Shown here in pieces: positions 159-5,004 of a stretch of 5,935 nucleotides of DNA. The stretch's first letter is position 1. Each line of letters opens with the position of its first letter. Source of the DNA: a virus; IMG/VR virus record IMGVR_UViG_3300029570_000106, positions 1-5,935 of that record. One strand, written 5' to 3'. Both the position numbers and the translations under genes were made by a program. The notes under the pieces were generated by a model. That model was not told the origin of the DNA. It worked only from the letters and a program-made list of their open reading frames with translations, and ran no database searches.

Positions 159-261
159 CTATTAACTAGATGTTCCGACTATTATATATTTATTAACAAT
201 ATATACAATAGTTCCTTTATTTTTCTTTTGAATTTACTATTGCATCGTAGTCGGTAGTATT

Positions 262-437
262 ATCAGCATGCGCGGCGTGTGAGCGCGTCTCAGGCAACAG
301 GACGTGACAGCGTCCCTTAGCGACTAGCTCCTTGATATCGGCAAAGCCGCATTCCACGCTCGAAGAGTGGGAACACTCGTGTTCTTATCCTGTTATTGAA
401 GGAACCTGCCCGTCTGTTCTTCTAGAGAGGTCCTTCC
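262..437. other. GC-rich, hairpin-dense non-coding island. It is a candidate single-strand (complementary-strand) origin or a structured ncRNA.
   Basis: By my count, 261-440 is about 54% GC and 271-380 about 60%, against about 13% GC in 181-240 and roughly a third genome-wide. Stop codons occur in all six frames. Stem-loops on the + strand are: 270-288 (gcgcg/cgcgt), 300-315 (ggacg-tgacag-cgtcc), 339-349 (cggc-aaa-gccg), 365-378 (gagtg-GGAA-cactc) and 398-436 (gaagga(a)cct ... agg-tccttc, about 9 bp with a bulge). It lies immediately 3' of the rep stop codon (438-440). Confidence 0.5.
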
Positions 438-1547
438 CTATATACCCCTATTCCATTCTTCAAGAGTATTTTGAGGTTTTGTAGTAAATCTGGATAACCA
501 TTCGGATTCATCAAATTCTTTTATTGGCTCTATTTTTAATTCTTTGTATTTGTTATTGTATTTATTTTTTGCTGCTATCCAATCGTAAAGGTCTTGGTCT
601 TTTTTGGAGGATTTTTTGCGTTTCATTTTGGATACAGCTAACCTTTGTTTTTCGAGCCTATTAATGTATTTCGCTTCTTCCCACTCGTTAGGATTGTCTC
701 CGTGTATTTGTTGACATCTTTGTTGATAATATTTTAAGGTTTCTTTGTATAATATCTCGTTGTTAATGTCTATTTTTTCGCCCATAACATATACTTCTCC
801 TTTGTTTAATTTTTGTATCCATAATAATTCTCTTTCTTTTTCTGTATATATTTTATTTCGATAATATATTGGTAGATTTATTTTTGCTCCATTTTTACAT
901 CTGTAGGTTTCTTTTGTCTCTTCGCCTTTGTATTTGTTATTTTTTGCATCTGTTCTTGTCGTGTATTGGCTTCCTATTCCTGCACTGCATAATACCTTCC
1001 CTGTAAAGGTTGGGTGCTTTTCGTCTTTCTTGTACATATATTTTGTAATGTAATTTATTGTCTTTTCTGTTACGTATTGACCTATAAATATAAATCCATA
1101 TTTCCAAGTTTCCCGTACTAACGACTCTAAACCTACACCCCATAAGATACCGTGGATATGTATCCTCTCCGTATCGTTCCCACCAAGTTCCGTAATGCAC
1201 CAATGCTTTATTGATTTTTTTGTAATTTTTCTTACTCTCTCTAACCATAATCTCATGGCTTGTGTAGCTACATTGTTGTCTCCTTTTATATTGTATTTTT
1301 TTTCTATACTTTTGTACCATTTATTTTCTAATGTTAGTGTTATAAATATTGCATTTGGGTTACTCCTTAATTCTTCTTCCATTCTTACTAGCCACCCTCT
1401 TGCCTTTTGCTTTCGGCATTCATAACATTTTCCACAGGCTGCTGTTACATACTTTAGTCTTTCATCTGGACATTTAGGAGGTGTCCCACCATTTTTTTTG
1501 TTTGGTAGGTATTTTCGGTTTAATATTAACTTCGGATATAAACACAT
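438..1547 (-). CDS. VP4: Rolling-circle replication initiation protein (Microviridae VP4 / gpA-like Rep), 369 aa
   Basis: The ORF carries the three RCR initiator motifs in canonical order: FITLTL (motif I), HIHGILWG (HuH motif II) and YITKYMYKK (motif III with two Tyr spaced Y-x-x-K-Y, as in phiX174 gpA). A strong SD, AGGAGGT, lies 5 nt before the ATG (+ strand cctcct at 1554-1559). The start overlaps the VP2 stop as TAATG. An N-terminal CX11CX2CX2C cluster is present. Confidence 0.9.
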   Translation of the reverse strand: MCLYPKLILNRKYLPNKKNGGTPPKCPDERLKYVTAACGKCYECRKQKARGWLVRMEEELRSNPNAIFITLTLENKWYKSIEKKYNIKGDNNVATQAMRLWLERVRKITKKSIKHWCITELGGNDTERIHIHGILWGVGLESLVRETWKYGFIFIGQYVTEKTINYITKYMYKKDEKHPTFTGKVLCSAGIGSQYTTRTDAKNNKYKGEETKETYRCKNGAKINLPIYYRNKIYTEKERELLWIQKLNKGEVYVMGEKIDINNEILYKETLKYYQQRCQQIHGDNPNEWEEAKYINRLEKQRLAVSKMKRKKSSKKDQDLYDWIAAKNKYNNKYKELKIEPIKEFDESEWLSRFTTKPQNTLEEWNRGI

Positions 1548-2584: not shown

Positions 2585-2678
2585 AATTATTTACTTTTTC
2601 GTTGTTTTTTTTAAAAACTTTCTTCATATTACTTGATATATAATGCTACGTGCGTACTTTTTGAGTTTTAATAGTAAA

Positions 2679-2694
2679 GGAGGTTTACACCTCC
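2679..2694 (-). terminator. Stem-loop GGAGGU-GUAA-ACCUCC (GNRA tetraloop in mRNA sense) followed by UUUACUAUU. This is a weak intrinsic-terminator or mRNA-processing candidate in the 157-nt gap between the 104-aa ORF and VP2.
   Basis: A perfect 6-bp stem is seen directly (+ strand ggaggtttacacctcc). The downstream U-tract is short and interrupted, so terminator function is uncertain. Confidence 0.3.
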
Positions 2695-2741
2695 CTTACT
2701 CAAAGTATTCATTTTCACCATGTGGCGACTTGGGTTTCCCA

Positions 2742-3060: not shown

Positions 3061-5004
3061 TTATAAATTTGGTATTACTTTTGCACTCATCATTCTTCTT
3101 GCCTTCCAATCCACTCCGATTTGTACCCAGAAATTCATCGCATCTAGACTTTCATCTGCAAAGATGTAATTGTATTTTGTTGGGTCTATATAGGTTGTTA
3201 GGTCTTTAATTACAGATTGATTGAGCGTTCCTGTTTCGCTGTTGATTTCATAGTTTCTATTAAGCACCATGAATTCTTCACTCTGTCCACTTGCGAAGTT
3301 TCCATGAGTTCTATTGTAGTTGCTCATATAGTCAATCCATGCTGGTTGTTTTCCTGCACTGAATTTAGTTATTAATTTCTTTGGTGACCCTATAAATGTA
3401 TCCCACCATGCCATTTTTGATGTGATTAAATCTTGAAATCCAATAGCATCTAAAGCTGGCTTGTGTAGGTCGTTCATTGTTTGTAGTGACCTATCCCATT
3501 TTGTTCCTTGCGAATAATCAACTCTTGGCGTGATTGATACGATTCCAATGATATAACTTGGTTCTTCTACTTTGATTTTTAAGTATCCACCTTTTTTATT
3601 ATATGCTAATTTTCCGCGTCCGGCTAAACTTCCTAGTGGTTCATCTTCTGATGCACTTTGGCTAATTACTTCTTGAAATACAATTTCATCTGACATTCCA
3701 CCCATATATACAGGTGTTTCTGCTCTTTCGATATAATTTGACGTATATACTGTTTCAATCCAGTCTCTGTAAGAACCTCCGGATACCGCAATACGATTCA
3801 TCATGTTGTATACTTTCTGAGCTAGATTTAATGCATCAATTGTAAATGAACCATTTGTCACACTTACTGCTGTAATTTCACTGATTCCATTTTCTCCGTC
3901 AATCCATTCTGTATTAATCCAGTTGTTGAATAAATCTGATTGATAGGTTTTTACGCATAGTCCACATTGAGGAAATGTTGTATTAAGACTCCCGTTCGTT
4001 CTTTGGCCTAACATTGTAAAGAATCCCATAGCGGATGTCATTAAATCGTATGGTGTATTTGTTGGTGCTTGTAAAATTTTTTCTCTTATTAAGTCAATTT
4101 CAGTAGGTTTAAATGTTGATAATTTTCCACCTCCTACTCCTATTGTTGACTCGATTTTATAAATATAATATGACCTTTTTTCTATTGTCACGTCCGCGAT
4201 ATTACCATTTAACCCGGTACTTCCCATGTCTTCAAGTTTTACTTTTGCCATTCCGCCACGGGATTTAACGTATACTACAATTTGGTTAAGTGGATCCGAT
4301 AATCCTTCTGTTATAATTTTTACGGTTTTTCCAACACCTGCTATCTCATTTATATTATTGGGATTATATACCTTTTCGTCAATGGTAACTCCTGTAATAT
4401 CTGTATTAGGTACGATATAATATGCATCTTCTTCTTGTAGATTTGCATAATAATTTTTGAATATATCGTAATACATCAATTCTGGCATGCATTGTGATGC
4501 TATTTTATACGTATTTACTGTTTCTGGGTATATTCTTCCTTCTCCGTTAAATCCTAGATAACTTCTTAGGCAACTTGGATTTACTTGCCTGTTGTTTATG
4601 TCACCTCCTATTGTTGTTGATGGATTGTCTGCTGTTTTGTCGTAAACAACACCCAATACTGGAAATTTTACTTTCGACATATCTAATCCAATCCCTAATT
4701 TATTGTTGTGTAACTGAGCGTTATATAATCTTATCGGACAGTCGAATACATCTAATTGTAATTTGAACGAACCGAACAATGGTCCTACTGTTGGATGCGT
4801 TAACACATTTGCGTTGAGTTGTATTTCATGGACATCTCCCGGTAGCGCTAATTCACATAAGAATGGTACTAATGTACCTGGACTTTGCGTATTTCTCCAT
4901 ACATAACTTAAATCATGAGTTGACCTATTATAAGTTCTCATGTCTACTTGCATTTTTTTCCCACCTCCTAGGGTGTTTTTTCCGATACTTCTTGTTAGAC
5001 TCAT
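3061..5004 (-). CDS. VP1: Major capsid protein (Microviridae VP1 / F-like). The maximal ORF is 647 aa. The probable true start is Met18, which would give coordinates 3061..4953 and about 630 aa.
   Basis: It is the largest ORF. The N-terminal region (NRSTHDLS ... LVPFLCELALPGD) matches the conserved N-terminus of gokushovirus-type VP1. The ATG at 4953-4951 is preceded by TAGGAGGTGG with an 8-nt spacer (+ strand cctcct at 4964-4969). The upstream ATG at 5004 has only a weak GAGA and overlaps the preceding ORF stop as ATGA. Confidence 0.92.
   Translation of the reverse strand: MSLTRSIGKNTLGGGKKMQVDMRTYNRSTHDLSYVWRNTQSPGTLVPFLCELALPGDVHEIQLNANVLTHPTVGPLFGSFKLQLDVFDCPIRLYNAQLHNNKLGIGLDMSKVKFPVLGVVYDKTADNPSTTIGGDINNRQVNPSCLRSYLGFNGEGRIYPETVNTYKIASQCMPELMYYDIFKNYYANLQEEDAYYIVPNTDITGVTIDEKVYNPNNINEIAGVGKTVKIITEGLSDPLNQIVVYVKSRGGMAKVKLEDMGSTGLNGNIADVTIEKRSYYIYKIESTIGVGGGKLSTFKPTEIDLIREKILQAPTNTPYDLMTSAMGFFTMLGQRTNGSLNTTFPQCGLCVKTYQSDLFNNWINTEWIDGENGISEITAVSVTNGSFTIDALNLAQKVYNMMNRIAVSGGSYRDWIETVYTSNYIERAETPVYMGGMSDEIVFQEVISQSASEDEPLGSLAGRGKLAYNKKGGYLKIKVEEPSYIIGIVSITPRVDYSQGTKWDRSLQTMNDLHKPALDAIGFQDLITSKMAWWDTFIGSPKKLITKFSAGKQPAWIDYMSNYNRTHGNFASGQSEEFMVLNRNYEINSETGTLNQSVIKDLTTYIDPTKYNYIFADESLDAMNFWVQIGVDWKARRMMSAKVIPNL
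4963..4970 (-). promoter_or_regulatory. Shine-Dalgarno (TAGGAGGTGG) for the probable VP1 start at 4953
   Basis: It is seen directly, with an 8-nt spacer to the ATG. Confidence 0.7.

What the first reader, a model, noticed from the sequence alone, without database searches (positions are those of the whole stretch)
262..437. Sharply GC-rich, multi-hairpin non-coding island immediately 3' of rep
In a genome of roughly one-third GC, this 175-nt segment is about 54% GC, with a core near 60%. It has stops in all six frames. It contains at least five stem-loops with GC-rich stems (270-288, 300-315, 339-349, 365-378 with a GGAA/UUCC tetraloop, and a long bulged hairpin at 398-436 that abuts the rep stop codon). 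In AT-rich genomes such islands almost always mark structured nucleic acid rather than protein. For a ssDNA phage the obvious candidate is the complementary-strand origin. phiX174 and G4 carry their PriA/DnaG-recognised hairpin origins in an intergenic region, filamentous phages and RCR plasmids use RNA-polymerase- or primase-recognised ssDNA hairpins (sso), and no such element has been defined for gokusho-type microviruses. The alternatives are a structured ncRNA, or a stable 3' end or processing signal for the polycistronic mRNA. The hairpin that follows rep has no U-tract, so it is not a classical intrinsic terminator.
Basis: partly seen in the sequence, partly recalled or inferred. Interest (0 to 1): 0.8.

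Follow-up and report, generated by a model that had tools for sequence, protein, structure and literature searches.

The report
Portable hairpin DNA cassette in microviruses
The GC-rich island is a real, conserved, multi-hairpin single-stranded-DNA element that gut microviruses swap between unrelated lineages; it always sits on the T-rich strand (probably the packaged one), which in this virus is, surprisingly, the strand opposite to all the genes, and it most likely starts synthesis of the second DNA strand.

Summary
In detail: window 262-437 is 55% GC (core 59%) in a 34% GC, 5856-nt circular microvirus genome, with stops in all six frames. Folding energy is no better than shuffles on either strand, yet comparison is decisive. 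More than 200 microvirus contigs carry the element, and 24 base pairs in five helices show 99.3% pairing with 15 doubly compensated pairs. No Rfam, tRNA, plasmid or bacterial-genome match exists. The element occurs in two unrelated microvirus lineages with opposite gene orientation. It has moved between them at least 7 times and always lies on the T-rich strand, which is also the strand that folds (36 G·T versus 2 A·C cells). In the window's lineage that strand is antisense to every gene: four-fold sites are 64% A on the coding strand, the mirror of phiX174, Chp2, SpV4 and lineage B. A separate phiX-origin-like motif (ACTTGATAT…GCGTAC, window 2631-2657) lies on the same T-rich strand. The island is patchy in both lineages, and its nick-site-like core (CCTTGATATCG) mutates independently of that motif, so it is not the Rep origin. 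It implies a probably negative-sense microvirus lineage.

The parts
247..261 (+). 5' flank motif GTAGTCGGTAGTATT (conserved TAGTCGG). In lineage B it reads TTGATAGTCGG, a near-repeat of the core.
   Evidence: Alignments; context listing.
270..286 (+). Helix H1 (270-273 pairs with 283-286; loop GGCGTGTGA). It is shortened or absent in the 'Dulem-218-type' variants.
   Evidence: 2 of 4 pairs have double compensatory changes and 100% of cells are paired.
300..315 (+). Helix H2 (300-305 pairs with 310-315).
   Evidence: 5 of 6 pairs are doubly compensated (GGACG/CGTCC, GGAGCTT/AAGCTCC, GAGGGC/GCCCTC).
318..328 (+). TAGCGA (CS-6-like hexamer, 318-323) and mini-helix H3 (320-321 pairs with 327-328).
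   Evidence: both pairs are compensated (GC/GC to AC/GT and GT/AC).. TAGCG[AT] is present in 25 of 31 variants.
330..340 (+). Single-stranded core CCTTGATATCG. It contains the 8-mer CTTGATAT that is identical to the phiX174 Rep nick site. A sub-clade has CC[A/T]TAGTATCG instead.
339..349 (+). Helix H4 (339-342 pairs with 346-349; 3-nt loop).
   Evidence: the third pair varies GC/CG/AU.
352..373 (+). Helix H5 with conserved bulged A356 (352-355 and 357-360 pair with 366-373). It includes the G358·T368 wobble.
   Evidence: In four lineage-B variants it is replaced by an unrelated hairpin, TCGC-TTTA-GCGA.
399..435 (+). 3'-domain hairpin H6 (399-403 and 405-407 pair with 428-435). The interior is variable and the closing stem AGGNN/NNCCT is conserved.
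436..446 (+). Conserved 3' terminal motif CCCTATATACC (TATATA / TAAAAT / TATACA in the variants). It overlaps the rep stop codon.
438..1547 (-). Rep (VP4) gene, 369 aa. Its last codons overlap the element.
   Evidence: PF23343, E=9e-12.
2631..2657 (+). 'Site 2', ACTTGATATATAATGCTACGTGCGTAC: a phiX-origin-like motif (nick-site 9-mer, AT-rich spacer, GCGTAC). It is the probable Rep (viral-strand) origin, lies on the same T-rich strand as the island, and is needed to interpret the island.

Best explanation
The island (about 247-447) is a single-stranded-DNA structural cassette that folds on the window + strand into six short GC-rich hairpins joined by conserved unpaired linkers. It is not specific to one virus. 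The same cassette is exchanged among gut microviruses of two unrelated lineages, and it is always installed on the T-rich strand. That strand also carries the phiX-like Rep nick motif, so it is most probably the strand that is nicked, displaced and packaged. The most likely function is a single-strand (complementary-strand) origin. When the virion strand enters the cell, or is displaced during rolling-circle replication, the AT-rich remainder is coated by SSB. The GC hairpins stay folded and recruit a host priming enzyme (RNA polymerase or primase) to start the second strand. In the window's lineage the strand so made is the coding strand, meaning the virion DNA would be negative-sense. Shown here: the structure and its covariation; which strand folds; the strand lock; horizontal exchange; absence from host genomes and plasmids; patchy distribution; and independence from the phiX-like origin motif. 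Inferred: that the T-rich strand is the packaged one, and that the element primes DNA synthesis.
For: Structure: 24 pairs in 5 helices, 99.3% of cells paired versus 83.7% in shuffles (0/500) and 31-46% in slid controls; 15 pairs have double compensatory changes, and the 3' hairpin has a conserved closing stem. Folding strand: in helices 2-5 of 92 distinct copies there are 36 G·T versus 2 A·C cells (24 versus 2 in lineage A). Strand lock: the island is on the T-rich strand in 64/64 IMG/VR contigs, 79/80 metagenome contigs and all model hits in protein-selected relatives, although genes are antisense to it in lineage A and sense in lineage B. Exchange: at least 7 A-to-B or B-to-A switches on the island tree, with up to 93% identity across lineages whose capsid and Rep show no tblastn similarity. 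Accessory cassette behaviour: the island is absent from many capsid relatives in both lineages, and more distant relatives carry a different GC-hairpin island on the T-rich strand. Packaged-strand inference: four-fold sites on the coding strand are A .64/T .14 in lineage A versus T .67/A .13 in lineage B, and T .52-.65 in phiX174, Chp2 and SpV4. ssDNA phages favour NNT through C-to-T pressure on the single strand (PMC3278643). The phiX-ori-like site 2 is on the T-rich strand in 57 lineage-A contigs and on the other strand in none. Not the Rep origin: the core switches GA to AG while site 2 stays identical. Match to sso behaviour: sso elements are functional only on the displaced strand, non-reversible, flexible in position, about 160 nt, structured and host-limiting (PMC5703833). 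Not host-derived: all 33 genome hits match only the search seed, at 23 bits or less, and there is no plasmid hit.
Against: No priming activity or host factor is demonstrated. The ssoA hallmark RSB is absent, and the CS-6-like TAGCGA is a chance-level hexamer. Folding energy is not better than shuffles. The excess of G·T over A·C could partly reflect C-to-T mutation bias on that strand rather than selection. The nick-site look-alike in the core is unexplained by a pure sso model. The polarity inference rests on composition and motif orientation, not on virion DNA. The isolated phage phiMH2K also has an A-rich annotated coding strand, so such composition may not prove polarity. If each transfer occurs by a polarity-preserving mechanism, such as Rep-mediated joining of viral strands, the strand lock would not by itself prove a strand-specific function.
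Confidence: 0.45

Rival explanations
1. The island is part of the Rep-dependent machinery: a viral-strand origin, a secondary initiation or termination site, or a cassette that spreads because Rep cuts and rejoins at its CTTGATAT core (a Rep-mobilised element), with the hairpins presenting the nick site as single-stranded DNA.
For: The core shares the 8-mer CTTGATAT with the annotated phiX174 nick site CAACTTG|ATATT. It is on the same strand as site 2. It sits in an unpaired linker between helices. Lineage B has a second near-copy, TTGATAGTCGG, about 75 nt upstream. The second island family is flanked by direct repeats of CTGATAGTATT. Joining of viral strands by Rep would automatically preserve polarity in every transfer.
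Against: A whole sub-clade has CC[A/T]TAGTATCG, which destroys the G|A step, while its site 2 is identical to that of genomes with the CTTGATAT core. The island is absent from many relatives in both lineages. The nick-like motif is followed by a GC hairpin, not the AT-rich spacer of phiX and site 2. Two active same-sense nick sites 2.3 and 3.5 kb apart would resolve the genome into sub-genomic circles (established knowledge of rolling-circle replicons). Near-identical islands serve lineages whose Rep proteins are unrelated at tblastn level.
Confidence: 0.2
2. The island is a structured RNA: an independently transcribed non-coding RNA, or an mRNA 3'-end, stability or processing element.
For: Covariation and G·U-type wobbles are what a structured RNA shows. 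In lineage B the folding strand is the sense strand, so it would be part of the polycistronic transcript.
Against: In the window and the rest of lineage A the folding strand is antisense to every gene. On the sense transcript the wobbles become A·C mismatches. No promoter precedes and no terminator follows the island on the + strand beyond shuffle expectation. No Rfam family matches at E<=10 and there is no tRNA or tmRNA. Orientation follows DNA-strand composition, not gene direction, through at least 7 transfers.
Confidence: 0.12
3. It serves another single-stranded-DNA function of the virion strand: a hairpin promoter that lets RNA polymerase transcribe directly from incoming ssDNA (Frpo-like), a packaging or condensation signal, or a decoy against host defence.
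For: The same strand-lock and folding-strand evidence applies. In lineage A the island lies just upstream, in the mRNA sense, of the whole gene array, and the virion strand would be the template strand. A -10-like hexamer (TATATA, TAAAAT or TATACA) is conserved at the 3' edge.
Against: In lineage B any RNA started there would be antisense to the genes, so a transcriptional role cannot be general. Microvirus packaging is coupled to Rep-driven synthesis and needs no separate signal in phiX174 (established knowledge). There is no direct evidence for any of these roles.
Confidence: 0.15
4. It is an artefact or passenger: an assembly chimera, host or vector insertion, or decaying junk.
For: One palindromic assembly is centred on the island (L165), which shows that the hairpins can provoke artefacts.
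Against: The island is present in more than 200 independent contigs from many studies. Compensatory evolution implies purifying selection. There is no copy in 185,579 species genomes beyond seed-only chance matches, and none in plasmids.
Confidence: 0.02

Closest known systems
Single-strand origins (ssoA, ssoU, ssoT, ssoW) of rolling-circle plasmids
   Same: About 160-200 nt, non-coding and extensively folded as single-stranded DNA. Functional on one strand only. Variable position relative to rep. Shuffled as cassettes among replicons with unrelated Rep. Different sso types substitute for one another (PMC5703833). All these behaviours are seen here.
   Different: There is no sequence similarity to any plasmid and RSB is absent. 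The architecture is six short hairpins rather than one long imperfect palindrome. The carrier is a phage. It contains a Rep-nick-site-like core. Priming has not been tested.
Complementary-strand origins of phiX174 (PriA/n' site) and G4 (primase-recognised hairpins), and the M13 minus origin
   Same: Intergenic hairpins on the packaged strand of an ssDNA phage that recruit host priming enzymes (established knowledge). Several short hairpins, as in G4.
   Different: The covariance model finds nothing in phiX174, Chp2, SpV4 or phiMH2K (9.5 bits or less). The hosts are unknown gut bacteria. The cassette is horizontally exchanged and dispensable in relatives.
phiX174 gene A protein origin (CAACTTG|ATATTAATAAC...) and the pC194-type CTTGATA nick site
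   Same: The island core shares CTTGATAT. Site 2 (2631-2657) shares ACTTGATAT plus an AT-rich spacer, and relatives share up to ACTTGATATTAA.
   Different: The island core is followed by a GC hairpin, varies to TAGTAT, and is not universal. Site 2, not the island, behaves like the origin. The pC194 comparison rests on my own knowledge and was not tested.
Frpo-type single-stranded DNA promoters of conjugative plasmids
   Same: Folded ssDNA that recruits RNA polymerase on an incoming single strand (my own knowledge). This would suit a negative-sense virion strand.
   Different: Frpo is one long hairpin that rebuilds -35 and -10 boxes, and no such arrangement is evident here. This was not tested.

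Membership tests
Plasmid-type single-strand origin (sso), generic | Functional on one strand only, with orientation fixed relative to the displaced or nicked strand | tested here: met
   The island is always on the T-rich strand, which also bears the phiX-like nick motif: 64/64, 79/80, and all model hits. This holds through at least 7 inter-lineage transfers. This is orientation conservation, not a functional assay.
Plasmid-type single-strand origin (sso), generic | About 150-300 nt, non-coding, with conserved intrastrand secondary structure | tested here: met
   About 185 nt with stops in six frames. 24 covarying pairs plus the 3' hairpin. G·T versus A·C of 36:2 identifies the folding strand.
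Plasmid-type single-strand origin (sso), generic | Cassette-like: flexible position, shared by replicons with unrelated Rep, replaceable by other types | tested here: met
   The island lies after rep (lineage A), after the pilot gene (lineage B) or after the capsid gene (rat microvirus). It is patchy in both lineages. A second island family occurs in relatives.
Plasmid-type single-strand origin (sso), generic | Directs host-enzyme priming of complementary-strand synthesis | not testable with these tools
   Needs an in vivo or in vitro ssDNA-to-dsDNA conversion assay.
ssoA subtype | RSB consensus (TTATGCCGAGAAAATTT; PMC4598088) | tested here: not met
   No match with up to 3 mismatches anywhere in the window.
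ssoA subtype | CS-6 (TAGCGT/A) in a terminal loop | tested here: inconclusive
   TAGCGA lies at 318-323, and TAGCG[AT] is present in 25 of 31 variants just 5' of the core. However, the hexamer occurs at chance frequency in the window, and it spans the flank and stem of a 2-bp helix rather than the loop of a long hairpin.
phiX174-type viral-strand (Rep) origin | Conserved nick-site key sequence (CAACTTG|ATA) | tested here: inconclusive
   The 8-mer CTTGATAT is shared, but a sub-clade has TAGTAT at the same place.
phiX174-type viral-strand (Rep) origin | AT-rich spacer and right-hand recognition block after the nick site | tested here: not met
   The island core runs straight into GC helix H4. 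By contrast, site 2 has the AT-rich spacer and a conserved GCGTAC.
phiX174-type viral-strand (Rep) origin | Essential, so present once in every genome of the lineage and co-evolving with Rep | tested here: not met
   The island is absent from many capsid relatives of both lineages. The same island serves unrelated Reps. The core changes while site 2 does not.
Known RNA families (Rfam 15), tRNA/tmRNA | Match to a curated covariance model or to tRNA/tmRNA structure | tested here: not met
   No hit in the island at E<=10. ARAGORN finds none.
Intrinsic transcription terminator | GC-rich hairpin followed by a U/T tract downstream of a gene | tested here: not met
   No terminator-like site on the minus (sense) strand after rep. 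The one weak + strand site lies inside the island.
Host-derived attachment site (attP / dif-like) | Sequence identity to a site in host chromosomes | tested here: not met
   The core pattern gives only seed-level chance hits in 185,579 species genomes. Only the exact core pattern was scanned.

The most novel reading that the evidence does not exclude
The window belongs to a large, abundant lineage of animal-gut microviruses whose virions package the strand complementary to all their genes (negative-sense ssDNA phages, unreported for Microviridae). The GC island is a portable 'second-strand ignition' cassette that is traded between negative-sense and ordinary positive-sense microviruses, always keeping its orientation on the packaged strand. 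In the negative-sense viruses the same folded DNA might also let host RNA polymerase begin making sense RNA directly on the incoming strand.
Probability: 0.35. Interest if true: 0.9.

Novelty: new variant of a known kind. Interest (0 to 1): 0.8.

Why it matters
Outside phiX174, G4 and their close kin, nobody knows where microviruses start either DNA strand, although these phages dominate many gut viromes. This work supplies two concrete, testable elements for one large uncultured lineage: a phiX-like Rep origin candidate (2631-2657) and a conserved, covarying hairpin cassette that behaves like a plasmid sso. The cassette's strict strand lock also exposed a lineage-wide mirror-image codon bias (NNA instead of NNT). 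The simplest explanation is that these viruses package the non-coding strand. Roux et al. 2012 reported only one complementary-strand ORF in the whole family. If confirmed, this changes how metagenomic microvirus genomes should be oriented and annotated. It gives a sequence-only marker of virion polarity, and it shows that replication modules are exchanged between microviruses that share no detectable protein similarity. It is also a caution about method: a shuffle z-score would have dismissed an element with overwhelming covariation support.

Tried and rejected
1. Free-energy z-scores (RNA and DNA parameters, both strands) were uninformative, ranging from -0.64 to +0.80.
2. tRNA/tmRNA and Rfam searches found nothing in the island.
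3. RNAalifold on the raw 69-sequence MAFFT alignment found only 10 pairs, because the variable stems were misaligned. A cleaner 31-sequence subset was needed.
4. Per-segment RNAfold wobble counts were noisy, because the bulged A creates spurious G·T pairs on the reverse strand. They were replaced by counts on the model-based alignment.
5. I considered whether the island is the Rep origin, because of CTTGATAT. This was largely rejected after finding site 2, the GA-to-AG core variants and the patchy distribution.
6. Host-derived sequence, attP or dif was rejected. The 33 genome hits are seed-only, which fits the roughly 17 matches I estimated by hand for chance (18 fixed bases in 2×596 Gb), and none scores above 23 bits.
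7. Similarity to plasmid sso cassettes: no blastn match and no RSB.
8. A short ORF under the island (annotated as a hypothetical protein in OP549868) was rejected. There are stops in all frames, and the stem indels are not multiples of three.
9. The Brentlinger phiMH2K paper, which could settle that phage's virion polarity, is not held.
10. Literature searches found no prior description of the element, of a microvirus sso outside the phiX/G4 group, or of negative-sense microviruses.

Full report
**Context.** The window is a complete circular microvirus genome of 5856 nt with a 79-nt terminal assembly repeat. All recognisable genes are on the minus strand: Rep/VP4 438-1547 (PF23343), a 345-aa pilot-like protein 1547-2584, the major capsid VP1 3061-5004 (PF02305), and several small ORFs. 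The finding concerns the non-coding stretch next to the rep stop codon.

**1. The observation.** It is accurate.
- Positions 262-437 are 55.1% GC and 262-380 are 58.8%, against 34.3% for the genome. This is 3.9 sd above the mean 176-nt window, and no other window exceeds 49%.
- All six frames contain stops.
As RNA the minus strand gives z=-0.10 and the plus strand +0.80. As DNA they give +0.18 and -0.64.
- There is no tRNA or tmRNA and no Rfam match at E<=10.
- No promoter or terminator signal exceeds shuffle expectation.

**2. Comparative evidence shows a real structured element.**
- blastn found the central 115 nt at 80-88% identity in other gut microviruses, although the rest of those genomes is about 67% identical at best.
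- A scan for the conserved core found 64 IMG/VR contigs, nearly all about 6 kb.
- A clean 31-sequence alignment gives 24 base pairs in five helices. 99.3% of cells are paired, against 83.7% in column shuffles (0 of 500 reach the observed value) and 31-46% when partners are slid by 1-3 columns.
- 15 pairs show changes on both sides, and the covariation score is 0.479 against 0.178.
- In window coordinates the parts are:

| Part | Coordinates |
|---|---|
| H1 | 270-273 / 283-286 |
| H2 | 300-305 / 310-315 |
| H3 (2-bp mini-helix, both pairs compensated) | 320-321 / 327-328 |
| Unpaired core CCTTGATATCG | 330-340 |
| H4 | 339-342 / 346-349 |
| H5 (conserved bulged A356) | 352-360 / 366-373 |
| H6 (variable hairpin, conserved closing stem) | 399-407 / 428-435 |
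| Conserved 3' motif CCCTATATACC, overlapping the rep stop | 436-446 |

  H6 and the 3' motif are.
The GGAA-loop hairpin 365-378 is not, because those bases belong to H5.

**3. It is not host, plasmid or artefact.** The 33 hits of the core pattern in 185,579 bacterial and archaeal species genomes match only the 20-nt seed, at 23 bits or less with the covariance model. I estimated by hand about 17 chance matches for that pattern (18 fixed bases in 2×596 Gb). No plasmid in PLSDB is similar. The model finds nothing in phiX174, Chp2, SpV4 or phiMH2K.

**4. The key surprise is orientation.**
- In contigs related to the window (lineage A), the element lies just after rep with its 'window +' form antisense to all genes.
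- In a second lineage (B, for example Dulem virus 245), whose capsid and Rep show no tblastn similarity to the window's, the same form lies after the pilot-protein gene and is sense to the genes. In a rat microvirus it follows the capsid gene.
- The element's strand is always the T-rich strand: 64 of 64 IMG/VR contigs (A .21/T .43 in lineage A; A .26/T .37 in lineage B) and 79 of 80 metagenome contigs. The one exception is a 1.5-kb fragment with A≈T.
- At four-fold degenerate sites the two lineages are mirror images on their coding strands. Lineage A has A .636/T .142 (n=48). Lineage B has T .671/A .132 (n=16).
- Relatives found through their proteins rather than through the motif behave the same way. 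All 53 capsid relatives of the window have A-rich coding strands (A .43-.78). All 71 capsid relatives of lineage B have T-rich ones (T .53-.76).
- For calibration, the coding strands of phiX174, Chp2 and SpV4 (for phiX174 this is known to be the virion strand) have T .63.52 and .65 at such sites. Cardinale and Duffy attribute the NNT preference of ssDNA phages to C-to-T pressure on the single strand (PMC3278643).
- A simple additive model of the whole-genome skews (-0.35 and -0.17) gives a packaged-strand T-bias of about 0.26 and a coding A-bias of about 0.09, provided lineage A packages the non-coding strand (inference).

**5. An independent pointer to the same strand.**
- The island's core shares the 8-mer CTTGATAT with the annotated phiX174 origin, CAACTTG|ATATT.
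- The window also has a second CTTGATAT on the + strand, at 2631-2657 in the VP2-upstream intergenic region: ACTTGATATATAATGCTACGTGCGTAC.
- This 'site 2' consists of the nick-site 9-mer, an AT-rich spacer and a conserved GCGTAC. In some relatives it reads ACTTGATATTAA, exactly as in phiX.
- It occurs on the T-rich strand in 57 lineage-A contigs and never on the coding strand. It is present in relatives that lack the island.
- I therefore take site 2 to be the probable Rep (viral-strand) origin. Together with the skew, this means the nicked, displaced and packaged strand is probably the window + strand, so this lineage would be negative-sense.
- Roux et al. state that, apart from one ORF, no complementary-strand genes had been reported in Microviridae (PMC3394797). 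Kirchberger et al. do not discuss origins or skew. All database relatives are uncultured, so virion polarity has not been tested.
- Caveat: the isolated phage phiMH2K also has an A-rich annotated coding strand, with CTTGATA only on the antisense strand. Either it shares the inversion, or such composition does not prove polarity. The original paper was not available.

**6. What the island is not.** It is not the Rep origin.
- The covariance model found it in 14 more capsid relatives in which the core reads CC[A/T]TAGTATCG, a GA-to-AG swap that removes the G|A step. The site 2 of these genomes is identical to that of genomes with the CTTGATAT core.
- The island is missing from many relatives in lineage A and from 53 of 71 in lineage B.
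- Near-identical islands (up to 93%) serve lineages with unrelated Rep proteins.
- Its nick-like motif is followed by a GC helix rather than an AT-rich spacer.
- Two active same-sense nick sites would also cut the genome into 2.3- and 3.5-kb circles (established knowledge of rolling-circle replicons).

**7. What it most likely is.**
- Which strand folds: in helices 2-5 of 92 distinct copies aligned to the model there are 36 G·T cells and 2 A·C cells (24 versus 2 within lineage A). So the T-rich strand is the folded one in both lineages. On the sense transcript of lineage A these positions would be mismatches. C-to-T bias on that strand may contribute to the asymmetry.
- Horizontal exchange: a neighbour-joining tree of 116 distinct islands from contigs of at least 4.5 kb needs at least 7 switches between lineages A and B. 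Every one kept the element on the T-rich strand, which has probability about 0.008 if orientation were free.
- Replaceable cassettes: relatives without this island often have another GC-rich (56-62%) non-coding island. One recurrent second family has its own compensated hairpins on the T-rich strand and is flanked by CTGATAGTATT repeats.
- Strand-locked, structured, about 180 nt, flexible in position, exchangeable between replicons with unrelated Rep, and replaceable by other types: this is how plasmid single-strand origins behave. [quoted passage not shown]
- I therefore favour a single-strand (complementary-strand) origin, with confidence about 0.45. By sequence it is not an ssoA. RSB is absent. 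The CS-6-like TAGCG[A/T] next to the core is present in 25 of 31 variants but is only a chance-level hexamer.

**8. Rivals.**
- A Rep-related role, or Rep-mediated mobility, would explain the nick-site look-alike, its near-repeat TTGATAGTCGG in lineage B and the polarity-preserving transfers. It is weakened by section 6 (confidence 0.2).
- A structured RNA fits the covariation. But it requires antisense transcription without a visible promoter in lineage A, and it does not explain why orientation follows DNA-strand composition (0.12).
- Other ssDNA functions, such as a hairpin promoter on the incoming template strand, packaging or anti-defence, are not excluded (0.15).
- Artefact or host insertion is excluded.

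**9. Verdict.** The element is a new family, absent from Rfam and the literature searched, of a known functional kind. Its analysis uncovered a probable lineage-wide inversion of virion polarity, which is the more surprising result and is directly testable.

Noticed in passing
window 2631-2657 (+): A phiX174-origin-like motif, ACTTGATATATAATGCTACGTGCGTAC (nick-site 9-mer, AT-rich spacer, GCGTAC), in the intergenic region upstream of VP2. It is conserved on the T-rich strand in 57 lineage-A contigs and never on the coding strand. It is the probable Rep origin.
   Followed up: yes
whole window, and loci L006-L069, L104-L156, L161-L240: The coding strand of this whole lineage is extremely A-rich at four-fold sites (A about .64, T about .14). 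This is the mirror image of phiX174, Chp2, SpV4 and lineage B, and it implies that the virion probably packages the non-coding strand.
   Followed up: yes
L160 (Bdellovibrio phage phiMH2K, NC_002643): This isolated gokushovirus also has an A-rich annotated coding strand (four-fold A .47, T .24; genome T .19), and CTTGATA occurs only on its antisense strand. Either it shares the inverted polarity or the composition argument has exceptions.
   Followed up: partly
L132:3513-3762, L133:5665-6080, L135:1274-1632, L140:4625-4877, L148-L153 (reverse strand): A second, unrelated family of GC-rich hairpin islands on the T-rich strand of more distant capsid relatives. It has its own compensated stems, an internal GCGTAC and flanking direct repeats of CTGATAGTATT.
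   Followed up: partly
lineage-B contigs, e.g. L016:~500, L008 (T-rich orientation) ~891: A conserved CGTAATCTTGATAT[T/A]TC[T/C]GA on the T-rich (sense) strand inside the capsid gene in 15 of 16 lineage-B contigs. It may be that lineage's Rep origin, or simply a conserved peptide.
   Followed up: partly
L173 (piece of 18.4-kb contig OGMW01001653.1) and L210 (10.1 kb): About 4-4.5 kb of lineage-A microvirus sequence is joined to sequence of clearly different composition and gene orientation. This is a possible provirus or an assembly chimera.
   Followed up: no
L165 (10,494 nt): A perfectly palindromic assembly with the island at its centre. It is probably a template-switch or assembly artefact provoked by the hairpins.
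   Followed up: no
window 2676-2700 (+): A strong hairpin, AAAGGAGGTTTACACCTCCCTT, lies 20 nt 3' of site 2. It gives only sub-threshold Rfam hits (RT-18, Spy1786666). It could be a terminator for the upstream ORF or part of the origin region.
   Followed up: no
window 247-261 (+); lineage-B islands about 75 nt 5' of the core: The 5' flank motif TAGTCGG (TTGATAGTCGG in lineage B) is a near direct repeat of the core TTGATATCGG. It is a possible footprint of Rep-mediated cassette insertion.
   Followed up: partly
L002 (OP549868.1) 1183-1425: GenBank annotates an 80-aa hypothetical protein across the island in this relative. The covariation pattern, the indels and the stops in other copies indicate that this ORF call is spurious.
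   Followed up: partly
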